Source: Eledone cirrhosa | Taxonomy: Eukaryota | DNA length: 64,000 bases | Reading direction: 5' to 3' | NCBI GenBank assembly: GCA_964016885.1 | Contig: OZ024755.1 | Location: forward strand, 1,798,001-1,862,000 | Part shown: piece by piece, positions 14,596 to 24,093 of the stretch | How the letters are laid out: each line of letters opens with the position of its first letter | How positions within the stretch are numbered: position 1 is the stretch's first letter | Position numbers and translations under genes: made by a program | The notes under the pieces: model-generated | Seen by the model: only the letters and a program-made list of their open reading frames with translations | What the model was told of the DNA's origin: nothing | Databases searched by the model: none

Positions 14596-15669
14596 GTATA
14601 GAGACAGAGTTTGGTGTTTTAGTTGATGGAGTATAGAGACAGAGTTTGGTGTTTTAGTTGATGGAGTATAGAGACAGAGTTTGGTGTTTTAGTTGATGGA
14701 GTATAGAGACAGAGTTTGGTGTTTTAGTTGATGGAGTATAGAGACAGAGTTTGGTGTTTTAGTTGATGGAGTATAGAGACAGAGTTTGGTGTTTTAGTTG
14801 ATGGAGTATAGAGACAGAGTTTGGTGTTTTAGTTGATGGAGTATAGAGACAGAGTTTGGTGTTTTAGTTGATGGAGTATAGAGACAGAGTTTGGTGTTTT
14901 AGTTGATGGAGTATAGAGACAGAGTTTGGTGTTTTAGTTGATGGAGTATAGAGACAGAGTTTGGTGTTTTAGTTGATGGAGTATAGAGACAGAGTTTGGT
15001 GTTTTAGTTGATGGAGTATAGAGACAGAGTTTGGTGTTTTAGTTGATGGTGTATAGAGACAGAGTTTGGTGTTTTAGTTGATGGAGTATAGAGACAGAGT
15101 TTGGTGTTTTAGTTGATGGTGTATAGAGACAGAGTTTGGTGTTTTAGTTGATGGAGTATAGAGACAGAGTTTGGTGTTTTAGTTGATGGAGTATAGAGAC
15201 AGAGTTTGGTGTTTTAGTTGATGGAGTATAGAGACAGAGTTTGGTGTTTTAGTTGATGGAGTATAGAGACAGAGTTTGGTGTTTTAGTTGATGGAGTATA
15301 GAGACAGAGTTTGGTGTTTTAGTTGATGGAGTATAGAGACAGAGTTTGGTGTTTTAGTTGATGGAGTATAGAGACAGAGTTTGGTGTTTTAGTTGATGGA
15401 GTATAGAGACAGAGTTTGGTGTTTTAGTTGATGGAGTATAGAGACAGAGTTTGGTGTTTTAGTTGATGGAGTATAGAGACAGAGTTTGGTGTTTTAGTTG
15501 ATGGAGTATAGAGACAGAGTTTGGTGTTTTAGTTGATGGAGTATAGAGACAGAGTTTGGTGTTTTAGTTGATGGAGTATAGAGACAGAGTTTGGTGTTTT
15601 AGTTGATGGAGTATAGAGACAGAGTTTGGTGTTTTAGTTGATGGAGTATAAAGACAGAGTTTGGTGTTT
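14596..15669. repeat. 35-bp minisatellite, about 30 near-identical copies
   Basis: Unit gtatagagacagagtttggtgttttagttgatgga, with no spacers. Confidence 0.97.
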
Positions 15670-16790: not shown

Positions 16791-17559
16791 GAAAGGGGTG
16801 GTGTTGGTGGGAATGGGGGGATGGAGTGGGGGTAGTGGGTTGCGGTGGATGATGGTGGAAATATTAATAGGAATGTCTCACTGATAATAACCTTCGTTTA
16901 CAACACAATACAAAAAAATGGTCCTAGGAATAGACTTTGCCTGTTTCAACTGTTAAACTAGTAGCTGTCTTTTGAACTAATGGTTTTCATTCTGTTGAGA
17001 AATGTATTTTCCCCTTAAATCTTTAACATTAATTAAATTATTGAATTTAATCAATGTTATTCTTGTCATTGGGCTAATAGTATAAAATAATTTAACCACA
17101 GAAACTCAAATAAATAAATGTCTAATATATGATGCATAAATATCTACTAATTAATCTGATCACTGTATGAAAATTTAACAAGTTATATCTCCACTGAGTT
17201 CTTGTTTGTATCTGATACAAATAGCTATTTGCTATAGTTCTCATCATGGCGATATTTGCCTTCTAATGAACAACCAATGTGCTGTGAAACATTTAAGGAC
17301 AATCTCAATAATTTTCTGTATATAAAGAGATTAATAAGTATCTAGGCTGTGAAAATATTGCAGCTATTTCAGCAACCAGGATAGGAGCAACGGTTGCATT
17401 CCAGTGTCGTTATATATCATCAGTTTGAGCTCAATCATAGAAAATCCTACGCACCACCTCCCACTTCTAAATGAGATACGAATCAAGAAAAACACAATAT
17501 CTTAGTTTAATATATCAGAAAATATATTAAAACTGAAACTAGATTTCCTAAAAAAATTA

Positions 17560-17910
17560 CACCCCGCCCCATTTTACCCTTTCTTTCTCGTTGTTATGTG
17601 TAAATACCTGAAAATTATTAATTATATGAAATATAGTGTAGTGAATTAAAAAAACGATTGCGAGTTAGTCTAAGGAGTGATTCTATTTCCTGAACAACAA
17701 ATATACAATAAACCTCACCCACATCTGTCACGGTTATACCAACAAACTTTGTAAGTACTTTCATTATATTTTTCTAACCTTTTATATGGATTTTTCCCTC
17801 GTGATAAAATTAGAACGATTTAACTGATAAAAGGCCATTTGTACATTTTCACACAGTTCAATAAATCAGAATAAAGACATAAGCATAAATTTGACGTTCA
17901 CATTCTTGAA
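17560..17910 (+). promoter_or_regulatory. Candidate promoter and non-coding 5' exons of the 21795-23704 gene
   Basis: GC box ccccgcccc near 17562; consensus donors GTAAGT at 17751 and 17911; acceptor ttttcacacag ending near 17856. A further candidate exon lies at 19512-19599 (tag...|gtaagt). Linkage to the gene is inferred. Confidence 0.4.
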
Positions 17911-19438: not shown

Positions 19439-20408
19439 TTTGGAGTGTTAAAGATTATGACATAAAAACAAAGCAATTATAGTTTTACTTTTACAAGCCA
19501 TATTTTCGTAGAGAAAGTTTTCACAGATTGAAACTAAAACGAATGGGGATCCACATAAAAATTAATAATATATTTAGTGAACACTTCAATTGATTCCAAG
19601 TAAGTAAATAAGACCATTGAAACTCAGATTATTAAGCTTTGTGGAAAGAAGCTGATGTAAAGTTTTGATACTGAATTCATTTCCGTAAAAACAAATTTCA
19701 ACCAACTTCGGTACAAGAGATACATTTAGTATCTCGACAATGCTGGGTTATCTTGGGTTATTTTATTTTAAAATAAATCAAATATTCTGCTGTATATTTA
19801 TTTACCACTTGAAGTCATTTTTGATAACCAAACCAGCACAGAAATGTCAAGTTTATATTTGAAAAATAATTTTTACACGAAATCTATTTGTTTATATATG
19901 ATAAATGCAAACAAGAATATTTATATAAATACCTTCGTTATTGATTCTTTCCCCCTTTTTTTTTTTTAAATTTAATTAATAAATAATTCTCATATGTTCC
20001 TAGCCATCTTATTTTATGAACACAGTTCTTTGTCTCAGAGTCCGAAAATTACGAATCGAAGGTTTATGAAATTCGAAAAATGTATCACGTGACTAATGCG
20101 GTTAGTTACGAAACAAGAAATGGTTCAATTTCGTTTTACAGAAGTATAATGTGAAGCTCAGCGTGAGGGTGCTTGGCTATTCCAGCGTTTCAGACTCGCT
20201 TTCACCCGACCTTACTGAAGTATTATGTGATGCTCCATGTGACAGTGCTTGGCTATTCCTATGCCTTAGCCTCGCTATCATCTGGTCTTATAGAAGTATT
20301 AGATAATACCTGGCAGTTGCTTAACTATTCCAACACCTTAGCCTTGTTAACTGCCTATCTTACTGAGGATCTTGGCTACTCCATGTAATGTGTATGGAAG
20401 ATGACAGC

Positions 20409-21491: not shown

Positions 21492-21794
21492 GTGAAAGAG
21501 TGAAGAATAACATGGCATGGTTGGCTGTACAAAAAGGGTTTTATTTACAGTATTAATTGTTTCATTGATCAGGTGAGTCTAAAGGCCTCTAATCACTCGA
21601 AATTGCATCACTCGACCTTAAATACAGTGTGTGTCTCTGATCAAATCATCGGAATACTCTGGTGAGTAATGGTCTAACCAGAGTTCTCGAAATTTGGGGT
21701 AGTAGAGTGGGGTGGGTAATTCGAAAAATTTGGAGTCCTGAATTTTTCATATATACTGTGTTTTATGATTTATTCTCTTCATTTTAGTATCACA

Positions 21795-21938
21795 ATGGCC
21801 TATAAGGACGCTCTAGAAGATTCTTTGATTCAAGGAACTAGTGTCACCTACCAGTCATATATTGCTCTTTTAGATGAAATGACAAATCTGAAGAAAATTG
21901 TAGATTCCTGTAAGAATTTCACAGATAAACCTGTTCAG
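21795..21938 (+). CDS. Coiled-coil/CCHC zinc-finger protein (NEMO/optineurin/ABIN-like), coding exon 1
   Basis: Acceptor ttcattttag at 21787; ATG at 21795; MAYKDALEDSLIQGTSVTYQSYIALLDEMTNLKKIVDSCKNFTDKPVQ; donor cag|GTAGGC; phase 0. Confidence 0.8.
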
Positions 21939-22000
21939 GTAGGCAAAGCTTTTTACATTTCTCTTTTTTTACATCTCTCTTTATGTATCTATATTATTAT

Positions 22001-22250
22001 CATCAACATTTAATGTCCATTTCCCATGCTAGCATGGGTTAGACAAGCTGTCCTGTTGTGAGACAAGCCTGATCGGAGGACCATTTTTTGCTCACAGAAA
22101 ACTGATTTTGGCTTGGTTTCTACTGCTGGATGCCCTTCCTAATGCCAACCACATTTATAGTGTGTTTTGGGTGCTTTTTGTCATGATATTTACATGACCA
22201 CTATACTACAGTGTGGGTTGGGCACTTTTTATCGTGACTCTTACATGACC
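22001..22250 (-). mobile_element. SINE family A copy in intron 1
   Basis: catcaacatttaatgtccatttcccatgctagcatgggttagac...ggatgcccttcctaatgccaaccac. Confidence 0.8.
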
Positions 22251-22295
22251 ACATTAATATTTTAATTAATAATTTTTTAAATCAATTATTTTCAG

Positions 22296-22421
22296 TTTGA
22301 TGCCAGTGTACAGACCATAACAGGATTACAGGGTGTAGAATGTGAAGAAATACTAAATAGTTTGGCCTCTGCCTATGATGCGAAACAAGCAGAATGTGAG
22401 AAAATGTGTAAAAAATTCAAG
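22296..22421 (+). CDS. Same gene, coding exon 2
   Basis: tattttcag|FDASVQTITGLQGVECEEILNSLASAYDAKQAECEKMCKKFK|GTAAAT; 126 nt, phase 0-0. Confidence 0.85.
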
Positions 22422-22727
22422 GTAAATTCACTTCTTATTTATCTTCCCAGAATTATCTAAAGTCATAGTCTTACTCTCGTAGTAGATGTAGCATTACCTA
22501 AAGTCATAGTCATACTCTAAAAGTAGATGTAGCATGGCTAAATGGTTAAGGTTTGCTTCACAGACATGAGATTCTGTGTTCAACTTTATCCTTCTGCCGC
22601 TAACAAAATATAGTACCAGTCACACACTGGGATTGATTTAATCGACCACTTCACTAATTGTTTTCCTTTATGTAAAACCTTAATAAATATTAATAAATAT
22701 TATTGTTTATTTATTTATTTTTCCTAG

Positions 22728-22784
22728 GCACAAGAAATTAAATTGAAAGATTCTGAAGCAATAATCAAAGAACTCTATGAGAAG
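22728..22784 (+). CDS. Same gene, coding exon 3
   Basis: tttttcctag|AQEIKLKDSEAIIKELYEK|GTAAAT; 57 nt, phase 0-0. Confidence 0.85.
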
Positions 22785-23009
22785 GTAAATATATTGTTTG
22801 AAGACCCCCACCCCATTCTCTTCTCAAAAAGGATATATTATTTTAAGTCTTGAAGCAATTTTGTGCCATGTGCCAGTGTGTGTGTGTATGTATGTCTCTA
22901 TGTACCTCTGTATATGTGTGTTTCCATGTGTCTGTGTGTGTGTGTTTCATAAATTCTGTGTTTGTTATAATTTTCATCAGGGTTTGTATGTGGCCATTGT
23001 AATGGGGTT

Positions 23010-23218
23010 GTGTAGGTGACATATCAAAAAGCACCCAGCTCACACTGTAAATGTGGTTGGTGTTAGGAAGGGCATCTAGCTGCAGAAACCAAGCCAAAAC
23101 CCGTTCTGTATGAGCAAGTCATGGTCATTGAACCTGTCTTGTCTCACAACAAGGCAACTCATCTAACCCACGCTAGCGTGGCAAATGGACGTTAAACGGT
23201 GATGATGATGATAATGAT
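23010..23218 (+). mobile_element. SINE family A copy in intron 3
   Basis: aaaaagcacccag...gtggttggtgttaggaagggcatc...aaatggacgttaaacggtgatgatgat. Confidence 0.8.
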
Positions 23219-23314
23219 GTGTTATAATTTCAGTAGCTATTATGTTTTAACTTTCACATTAAGTTTTCTACAATTTTTATTCCCTTTCTTTCTGCCATCC
23301 TTCCCATCATGCAG

Positions 23315-23398
23315 CTTGATAAAGTGATGCAAGACTTGAAATCTGAGAAGGAAGAATGTAATCGTTTAAGACGGTTAAACAGAGCAACTGGAATCTCT
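23315..23398 (+). CDS. Same gene, coding exon 4 (degenerate UBAN-like segment)
   Basis: Long pyrimidine tract, then gcag|LDKVMQDLKSEKEECNRLRRLNRATGIS|GTAAGT; 84 nt, phase 0-0. Confidence 0.85.
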
Positions 23399-23494
23399 GT
23401 AAGTTAACAATATTGTTTTATTTTATTTGTTTGTTTGTTCTTCCTCTTCTTGGACTCTAATGCCTTCTTACTTAGATTCTTTTTCCATTTACAG

Positions 23495-23704
23495 AGCACC
23501 AATATGGCGCCCTTGACCAGTACCAGATGTTCCAGTGTTTCCCAAAGCATTTTCAAGCCCCATTATCAACCTCCTCTCGCTGAAGTTGATGGTGTAGTGG
23601 GTAATTCTGTGATAAACAGCATGAGGTGTGCATTTTGTAAGGAAACTTTCAACAGTGAGGCAGAGTTGATGGAACACTGGAAGACATGTTCTAAGTGTGT
23701 GTAA
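23495..23704 (+). CDS. Same gene, terminal coding exon with C-x2-C-x12-H-x3-C zinc finger
   Basis: ttccatttacag|STNMAPL...MRCAFCKETFNSEAELMEHWKTCSKCV*; TAA at 23702-23704. Confidence 0.85.
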   Translation, partial: STNMAPLTSTRCSSVSQSIFKPHYQPPLAEVDGVVGNSVINSMRCAFCKETFNSEAELMEHWKTCSKCV

Positions 23705-24093
23705 GATTGTGTGTATATGTGTGTGGGAAGTAGTTTGTAAGAGTGTGTGTGAGTGAAGTCAACTAATGCATATGTTTGCAAGTGTATACATGTCTGTGTG
23801 TGTTAGTGTTCGTGTGTAGGGAGCAGTGTGTTGTATATTTGTGTGTGTGTAGGGAGCAGTATGTTATGTCTCTATTGTAGCATTTAATAATATATTAAAA
23901 CCTCATCCCATGGACTGATTGCTCTACACATTGCATACCTTTTACCAAACCATTACGAGACTATATATATATAATCTTGTATATATTTAGTCCACCGATC
24001 CAGACGTATATTATTATTGTCTGGGATCCAGAAACCTTTGGTAATGGAGTAATTATATTTTGTGTTGTTCACTTTCTAATATATTTATATATA

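What the first reader, a model, noticed from the sequence alone, without database searches (positions are those of the whole stretch)
21795..23704. Hidden 206-aa mini NEMO/optineurin/ABIN-like protein with a degenerate UBAN motif
Seen: five GT-AG, all phase-0 exons (48+42+19+28+69 aa) splice into one ORF encoding a coiled coil, an S/P linker and a terminal CAFCKETFNSEAELMEHWKTC. Known: C-x2-C-x12-H-x3-C at the extreme C-terminus is the NEMO/optineurin ubiquitin-binding finger. These proteins and ABINs carry a UBAN motif DFxxERxxRE upstream of it. Here the equivalent segment reads DLKSEKEECNRL, keeping D and E but replacing the F and R residues used for linear-ubiquitin binding. Inference: a short, divergent ubiquitin adaptor, possibly a decoy or modulator of NF-kB signalling or selective autophagy, about half the length of NEMO.
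Basis: partly seen in the sequence, partly recalled or inferred. Interest (0 to 1): 0.75.

Follow-up and report, generated by a model that had tools for sequence, protein, structure and literature searches.

The report
Spliced mini-adaptor with decayed ubiquitin sites
This is a real, spliced gene, likely from an octopus relative, for a 206-amino-acid coiled-coil protein ending in a zinc finger; it is likely a worn-down copy of an immune-signalling adaptor (ABIN-2/NEMO type) predicted to have lost its grip on ubiquitin, but its family is not proven.

Summary
The gene is real. The five coding exons are as described (206 aa, GT-AG, phase 0), and one public run holds a spliced 1,420-nt contig. That contig adds two upstream exons, which are non-coding (in-frame stop, no later in-frame ATG), so the protein is short, not a fragment. 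The family label is weaker than claimed. No exon hits the UBAN, NEMO-finger, EABR or TBK1-binding profiles, and the finger looks like a generic C2H2-fold finger. The genome already has separate NEMO-like, ABIN-2-like and NAP1/TANK-like genes. Weak clues point mostly to the ABIN-2-like gene: a shared EVDGV before the finger, and 3 of 4 introns within three codons. One intron sits exactly where the NEMO-like gene has it. A rival clue (FKPHY, finger spacing) points to the NAP1/TANK-like gene, and coil similarity is no better than to a control coil. If homologous, most UBAN ubiquitin contacts are replaced and the finger has Lys at the acidic contact position. Best reading (45%): a ubiquitin-blind ABIN-2-type paralog acting as scaffold or decoy. 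No orthologue was found, but those searches also missed a control.

The parts
17332..17750 (+).
   Evidence: spliced contig; translation
17857..17910 (+). 5' untranslated exon 2 (54 nt)
   Evidence: joints 17750>17857 and 17910>21788, both GT..AG
21788..21938 (+). first coding exon; ATG at 21795 with A at -3 and G at +4; residues 1-48, two predicted helices (2-13, 19-42)
22296..22421 (+). coding exon, residues 49-90; holds an N-x5-Y stretch (Asn69, Tyr75) that may be a decayed AHD1/EABR motif
   Evidence: motif match not significant
22728..22784 (+). coding exon, residues 91-109, likely coiled coil
23315..23398 (+). coding exon, residues 110-137; starts six codons before Asp116 of the UBAN-like segment (23333-23362)
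23552..23566 (+). FKPHY (157-161), identical to a linker word in the genome's NAP1/TANK-like gene
23582..23596 (+). EVDGV (167-171), identical to the word before the finger in the genome's ABIN-2-like gene
23627..23689 (+). CCHC zinc finger, Cys182-Cys185-His198-Cys202; predicted beta-beta-alpha fold; Lys200 at His+2
23495..24023 (+). last exon: Ser/Pro linker, finger, stop at 23702-23704, 3' untranslated part to at least 24023

Best explanation
An expressed, single-copy 206-aa protein made of a likely coiled coil, a Ser/Pro linker and a C-terminal CCHC finger, most likely a fast-evolving duplicate of the ABIN-2/TNIP2 branch of the NEMO family that is predicted to have lost ubiquitin binding. 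Shown: splicing, a complete short frame, the layout, and the residues at each position. Inferred: descent from the ABIN-2-type gene by loss of the N-terminal exon and shortening of others. Also inferred: the coil would dimerise with itself or with ABIN-2/NEMO coils while neither the UBAN-like segment nor the finger reads ubiquitin chains. It would then act as a scaffold or a dominant-negative decoy that ties up partners of the intact adaptor, possibly through the retained EVDGV linker word.
For: (1) The genome's ABIN-2-like gene (G000:C2:411656690-411661438, 377 aa; its UBAN exon's best PDB match is TNIP2, E 6e-6) has only phase-0 introns, a 28-codon penultimate exon and a 70-codon last exon; the window gene has 28 and 69. 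(2) EVDGV lies 13 vs 15 residues before the first finger Cys; a shared 5-mer between the two linkers arose in 3 of 5,000 shuffles, and EVDG preceded none of 361 other fingers. (3) With sequence anchors set before the offsets were computed, 1 of 4 of that gene's mappable introns matches exactly, 2 of 4 within one codon (p 0.017) and 3 of 4 within three (p 0.003). (4) The remaining window intron lies six codons before the UBAN-like Asp, exactly as in the NEMO-like gene (p 0.063). (5) The UBAN register ranks first in the protein; 1 of 538, 1 of 546 and 4 of 522 control coil windows score as high. (6) Loss of contacts: relative to Asp116, positions -11, -7, -3, +1, +8 and +9 read E, K, V, L, C, N, where both intact genes have Q(-7), Y(-3), F(+1). 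PMC6817665 (section 12) names the -11, -7, 0 and +1 positions as ubiquitin contacts conserved across the family. Its section 10 shows that the acidic residue at His+2 of the CEP55 finger is needed for binding; here it is Lys, in the ABIN-2-like gene Asp.
Against: No profile hit to CC2-LZ, EABR, TBD or the NEMO finger for 4 of 5 exons scanned singly (the 19-aa exon was too short to scan). The whole protein is not significantly similar to the ABIN-2-like protein (score 50, 95 of 2,000 shuffles; exons 1-4 alone 1,097 of 2,000). The best whole-length alignment is to the NEMO-like protein (score 74, p 0.003-0.017), in a different register; without the finger this falls to p 0.04-0.13, like a control coil (p 0.04-0.10). 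A 5-mer shared anywhere arises in 22-49 of 400 shuffles, and a second 5-mer points to another gene. The last-exon score against the ABIN-2-like gene (48) is reached by 150 of 361 other fingers, a set biased towards similarity. Finger spacing is x12 here, x14 in the ABIN-2-like gene. Anchors were picked by eye and several registers were tried. The 28-codon exon match and the UBAN mapping cannot both be literal exon homologies. No function was tested.
Confidence: 0.45

Rival explanations
1. An unrelated, lineage-specific coiled-coil protein with one ordinary C2H2-fold finger that happens to end in Cys; all likeness to immune adaptors is convergence and pattern-picking.
For: All finger matches are generic C2H2 fingers; 29 of 361 fingers in unrelated proteins also fit a CCHC pattern. 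Coil similarity equals that of a control coil. Two different 5-mers point to two different genes. hhalign probability 0.2%.
Against: EVDGV at the matching place and the intron concordance with the ABIN-2-like gene, plus the exact -6 intron, would all have to be chance.
Confidence: 0.27
2. A shortened relative of the genome's NAP1/TANK/SINTBAD-like TBK1 adaptor (G000:C1:240901225-240905237, 375 aa); exon 4 or exon 1 would be a TBK1-binding helix rather than a UBAN, and the protein would recruit or sequester TBK1.
For: Shared FKPHY (15 of 3,000 shuffles). Exon 4 begins LDK-x-M like that gene's second exon (score 26 over 8 residues). That gene's first finger is also C-x2-C-x12-H-x3-C and gives the best finger-only score (46 vs 39, 26, 25). 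A stop-interrupted frame of the 5' UTR resembles its exon 1 (score 46, p 0.006, one of nine tests; 0 of 336 background blocks).
Against: That gene's two introns are phase 1 and neither maps within three codons. Whole-protein alignments with the finger fixed are not significant (p 0.11-0.65). No TBD hit (the candidate parent also has none). The UTR stretch shows no DNA-level similarity (81 of 200 shuffles). The NAP1/TANK label of that gene rests on PF18112 plus recalled motifs.
Confidence: 0.17
3. A working mini-NEMO/ABIN ubiquitin adaptor: the altered UBAN or the finger still binds ubiquitin chains in a changed mode.
For: Asp116, Ser119, Glu120 and a basic residue at +5 are kept. The genome's own NEMO-like gene also lacks the second Arg/Glu pair, so this lineage tolerates drift. 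UBZ fingers bind ubiquitin in at least three modes (PMC6817665, section 10), and Glu197 precedes the His.
Against: The Phe after Asp and the Gln at -7, called strictly conserved in PMC6817665 (section 12), are replaced, and His+2 is Lys.
Confidence: 0.11

Closest known systems
ABIN-2/TNIP2 (and the genome's own ABIN-2-like gene on C2)
   Same: Coil, linker and terminal CCHC finger; D-x-x-S-E at the UBAN-like site; EVDGV before the finger; phase-0 introns at similar places; last exon of about 70 codons.
   Different: 206 vs 377 aa; no counterpart of the first coding exon; Phe, Gln, Tyr and the second Arg/Glu of the UBAN replaced; AHD1/EABR Trp and Arg absent; finger two residues shorter with Lys for Asp at His+2; no significant overall similarity.
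NEMO/IKK-gamma and optineurin (and the genome's NEMO-like gene on C17)
   Same: Intron six codons before the UBAN Asp; x12 finger spacing; best whole-length alignment, covering the last 190 residues of the NEMO-like model.
   Different: No PF16516, PF18414 or PF11577 hit; no kinase-binding N-terminal half; that alignment uses another register and is not above a control coil once the finger is removed.
CEP55 (PMC6817665)
   Same: Precedent for a divergent NOA/UBAN plus CCHC finger found by alignment in a protein with a job outside NF-kB.
   Different: CEP55 keeps the Asp-Phe pair, the -7 Gln and the acidic finger residue and binds ubiquitin; this protein keeps only the Asp.
NAP1/AZI2, TANK, SINTBAD TBK1 adaptors (PMC11883510; own-genome candidate on C1)
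   Same: Coil followed by linker and finger; FKPHY and an x12 CCHC finger shared with the C1 gene.
   Different: No TBD profile hit, no autophagy-receptor finger (PF18112), different intron phases and positions.

Membership tests
NEMO/optineurin/ABIN (UBAN family) | UBAN/CC2-LZ profile match | tested here: not met
   No PF16516 hit on exon 4 and no hit at this locus in the genome search; intact own-genome UBAN exon scores 35.2 bits; hhalign 0.2%. Only single exons could be scanned.
NEMO/optineurin/ABIN (UBAN family) | Asp-Phe pair and Gln at -7 that contact distal ubiquitin | tested here: not met
   Asp116 kept; Leu117, Lys109 (contacts from PMC6817665 section 12)
NEMO/optineurin/ABIN (UBAN family) | C-terminal CCHC beta-beta-alpha finger | tested here: met
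   Pattern in sequence; model pLDDT 84.5 with two short strands and a helix. Not specific to this family.
NEMO/optineurin/ABIN (UBAN family) | NEMO-type finger profile (PF18414) | tested here: not met
   No hit; the NEMO-like gene's finger hits at 27.4 bits, but the intact ABIN-2-like finger also misses it
NEMO/optineurin/ABIN (UBAN family) | Shared intron positions with own-genome members | tested here: inconclusive
   Exact -6 match to the NEMO-like gene (p 0.063); 2 of 4 within one codon for the ABIN-2-like gene (p 0.017); anchors chosen by eye
NEMO/optineurin/ABIN (UBAN family) | Parallel coiled-coil dimer that binds M1/K63 chains | not testable with these tools
ABIN-2/TNIP2 | AHD1/EABR motif upstream of the UBAN | tested here: inconclusive
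   N-x5-Y register ranks 1 of 121 in a 20-residue window but 199 of 300 shuffles reach it; rank 9 of 115 in a longer window; no PF12180 hit, though the intact gene scores only 12.5 bits
NAP1/TANK/SINTBAD | TBK1-binding domain (PF12845) | tested here: inconclusive
   No hit, but the profile found nothing anywhere in this genome and missed the candidate parent too
NAP1/TANK/SINTBAD | Autophagy-receptor-type finger (PF18112) | tested here: not met
   No hit on exon 5; two other loci pass the cut-off
Classical C2H2 zinc-finger proteins | C-x2-C-x3-F-x5-L-x2-H-x3-H, usually in arrays | tested here: not met
   Spacing, Phe and Leu fit, but the last ligand is Cys, the finger is single and all scores are below Pfam cut-offs

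The most novel reading that the evidence does not exclude
A natural ubiquitin-blind pseudo-adaptor: an ABIN-2 duplicate that lost both ubiquitin-reading surfaces but kept its dimerising coil and an x-E-V-D-G linker word shared with the intact ABIN-2-like protein. That word fits a caspase-type cut site (consensus recalled, not tested), so the protein could be a cleavable brake on NF-kB or autophagy signalling, the adaptor counterpart of a pseudo-enzyme.
Probability: 0.15. Interest if true: 0.62.

Novelty: new variant of a known kind. Interest (0 to 1): 0.36.

Why it matters
The gene is a confirmed, expressed, short coil-finger gene for which no search here found a relative. If it is an ABIN-2 duplicate blind to ubiquitin, it would be a natural loss-of-binding variant of a family whose function in mammals depends on that binding (for ABIN-3, PMC8286839 passages). 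It would give a direct test of decoy regulation in cephalopod innate immunity, beside intact NEMO-like and ABIN-2-like genes in the same genome. If the family link fails, it is one more lineage-specific coil-finger protein of modest interest.

Tried and rejected
Further upstream coding exons: rejected for the one transcript seen; other isoforms are not excluded. Retrocopy or nearby paralog: searches with exons 1, 2 and 5 found only this locus and none lay within 40 kb on either side of the window; these searches score only the best candidates. Orthologue searches were blank: exon 5 and exon 1 among longer proteins; exon 5 against 1.84 billion representatives gave 32 hits, whose multiple matched stretches point to multi-finger proteins; ESM Atlas gave generic fingers and unnamed clusters; 3 metagenome loci were pattern noise. 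These blanks say little, because the genome's NEMO-like UBAN exon also found nothing. No RNA holder was listed by record; the spliced contig came from a run of unrecorded kind. PDB sequence searches with exons 1, 2 and 4 gave nothing at E below 0.1. The five PF11577 hits in the genome were repeats or noise; PF12180 and PF12845 rang nowhere. In the exon-by-exon matrix only the last exon vs the ABIN-2-like last exon stood out. A YK-anchored match of the first coding exon to the ABIN-2-like second exon was dropped from the intron count because it was found by comparing exon starts; one search is the count without it. No coding-vs-UTR selection test was possible (2 differences in UTR, none in the coding part, one run). 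Ten literature searches listed no paper on a short NEMO/ABIN-like protein of a mollusc; most were seen as listings only.

Full report
Observation. The five coding exons are in the sequence as described, with GT-AG phase-0 introns and a 206-aa spliced frame; four residues follow the finger. No run was on record as RNA, but run X4 holds a 1,420-nt contig at depth 61 that skips the introns. Five joints are listed as GT..AG; the sixth follows from record coordinates and from the seven exons summing to 1,420 nt. This is one run of one study. The contig adds two upstream exons (17332-17750, 17857-17910). They carry an in-frame stop 141 nt before the ATG and no later in-frame ATG, and the ATG has A at -3 and G at +4. 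Exon searches found only this locus in the 3.0-Gb genome and no copy in 144 kb around it. That the genome is octopod comes from unchecked notes of the scan.

Profiles and folds. Four of five exons were scanned singly; the 19-aa exon was too short, and the spliced protein was not scanned as a whole. None hit CC2-LZ, EABR, TBD or the NEMO finger; the finger gave only sub-threshold C2H2 hits. It folds as beta-beta-alpha (pLDDT 84.5), and its structural neighbours are ordinary C2H2 fingers, none at E 0.001. Searches for relatives were blank, but so was a control with the genome's NEMO-like exon, so the blanks show neither novelty nor absence.

Comparison with the genome's own adaptors. I modelled three genes from the DNA, without transcript support: a NEMO-like gene on C17 (partial, 501 aa), an ABIN-2-like gene on C2 (377 aa) and a two-finger gene on C1 (375 aa) that I call NAP1/TANK-like from PF18112 and recalled motifs. 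The window gene is none of these, so it is an additional gene.

For the ABIN-2 link: EVDGV sits just before the finger in both genes (3 of 5,000 linker shuffles; absent before 361 other fingers). Both have only phase-0 introns and last exons of 69 and 70 codons. Using the N-x5-Y, UBAN-Asp and EVDGV anchors, 1 of 4 introns matches exactly, 2 of 4 within one codon (p 0.017) and 3 of 4 within three (p 0.003). The window's other intron lies six codons before the UBAN-like Asp, as in the NEMO-like gene (p 0.063); the ABIN-2-like gene reads through a CAG/GT at that place.

Against it: the UBAN register is reached by 28, 41 and 121 of 300 shuffles, and hhalign gives 0.2%. Overall similarity to the ABIN-2-like protein is not significant. 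The best whole-length score is with the NEMO-like protein (74; 1 of 2,000 shuffles; p 0.003-0.017 with heptad-preserving shuffles), but without the finger it is no better than a control coil (one control, itself a weak CC2-LZ hit). The last-exon score of 48 is reached by 150 of 361 other fingers, a set selected for likeness. The C1 gene shares FKPHY (15 of 3,000), an LDK-x-M start and the x12 CCHC spacing, and gives the best finger-only score, although its introns differ in phase and place. A 5-mer shared anywhere occurs in 5-12% of shuffles. Several registers and three parents were tried, so the p values are optimistic.

Ubiquitin contacts. Taking the UBAN register, the protein keeps Asp116, Ser119, Glu120 and Lys121, and replaces the positions -11, -7, -3, +1, +8 and +9. 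PMC6817665 (outline, passages, sections 10 and 12, first part of the discussion) names -11, -7, 0 and +1 as contacts conserved across the family; multiple mutants there lost binding more than 500-fold, though they also dimerised poorly. The same paper shows a 20- to 26-fold loss when the acidic His+2 residue of the CEP55 finger is mutated; here that position is Lys, in the ABIN-2-like gene Asp. The paper also lists three UBZ binding modes, so binding in another mode is not excluded. Its supplementary alignments (Figures S1, S2, S4) were not seen and bear on this mapping.

Mechanism. Shown: a spliced short gene, its layout and residues. Inferred: origin from the ABIN-2 branch; loss of ubiquitin binding; action as a dimerising scaffold or decoy that competes for partners of the intact adaptor. 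Confidence 0.45; rivals are an unrelated coil-finger protein (0.27), a NAP1/TANK-type relative (0.17) and a still-working ubiquitin adaptor (0.11).

Known and new. It is built like ABIN-2, NEMO and CEP55 but fails the UBAN membership tests, so it is not filed as a member. Other papers seen as passages only: PMC8286839, PMC4599966, PMC12221755 (places D311 and E315 in exon 8 but not the intron), PMC11883510, PMC7697625. Ten searches listed nothing on such a protein in molluscs. The scan's index held no note near this place, by sequence or by these words. Verdict: observation confirmed, interpretation partly supported, interest 0.36.

Noticed in passing
G000:C17:12329955-12356684 (-), L004, L006, L012-L015: The NEMO-like gene itself has a partly altered UBAN (Gly-Ile in place of the second Arg-Glu) and a C2H2, not CCHC, finger. 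Only two clear UBAN genes were found in the genome.
   Followed up: partly
G000:C2:411656690-411661438 (+), L019-L020: Compact, intact ABIN-2/TNIP2-like gene of six phase-0 coding exons, 377 aa, with EABR-like, UBAN and CCHC parts.
   Followed up: yes
G000:C1:240901225-240905237 (-), L052-L053: Three-exon, 375-aa gene with an N-terminal coil and two C-terminal fingers (CCHC, then PF18112); looks like a NAP1/TANK/SINTBAD-type TBK1 adaptor by recalled motifs, without a TBD profile hit.
   Followed up: partly
G000:C8:3232776-3232856 (+), L039: Last exon with two tandem autophagy-receptor-type fingers, likely a TAX1BP1/CALCOCO-type gene (label recalled).
   Followed up: no
window 17424-17546: A stop-interrupted frame of the 5' UTR aligns without gaps over 41 codons to exon 1 of the C1 gene (p 0.006, one of nine tests; no DNA-level support). 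Unexplained, probably chance.
   Followed up: yes
window 17319-17750: TATATAAA just before the contig's 5' end; three upstream ATGs in the UTR; the C-to-T difference at 17655 in run X4 would add a fourth, out of frame.
   Followed up: partly
window 20040-20200, 21573, 21662: CpG-rich stretch with TCACGTGAC (20085-20093) and two strong donor sites inside the long UTR intron, unused in the one contig seen; possible alternative first exons.
   Followed up: no
window 14600-15660: Long tandem array of a unit of about 35 bp, seen by eye.
   Followed up: no
window 26700-27900: Looks by eye like a decayed hAT-type transposase remnant; not tested.
   Followed up: no
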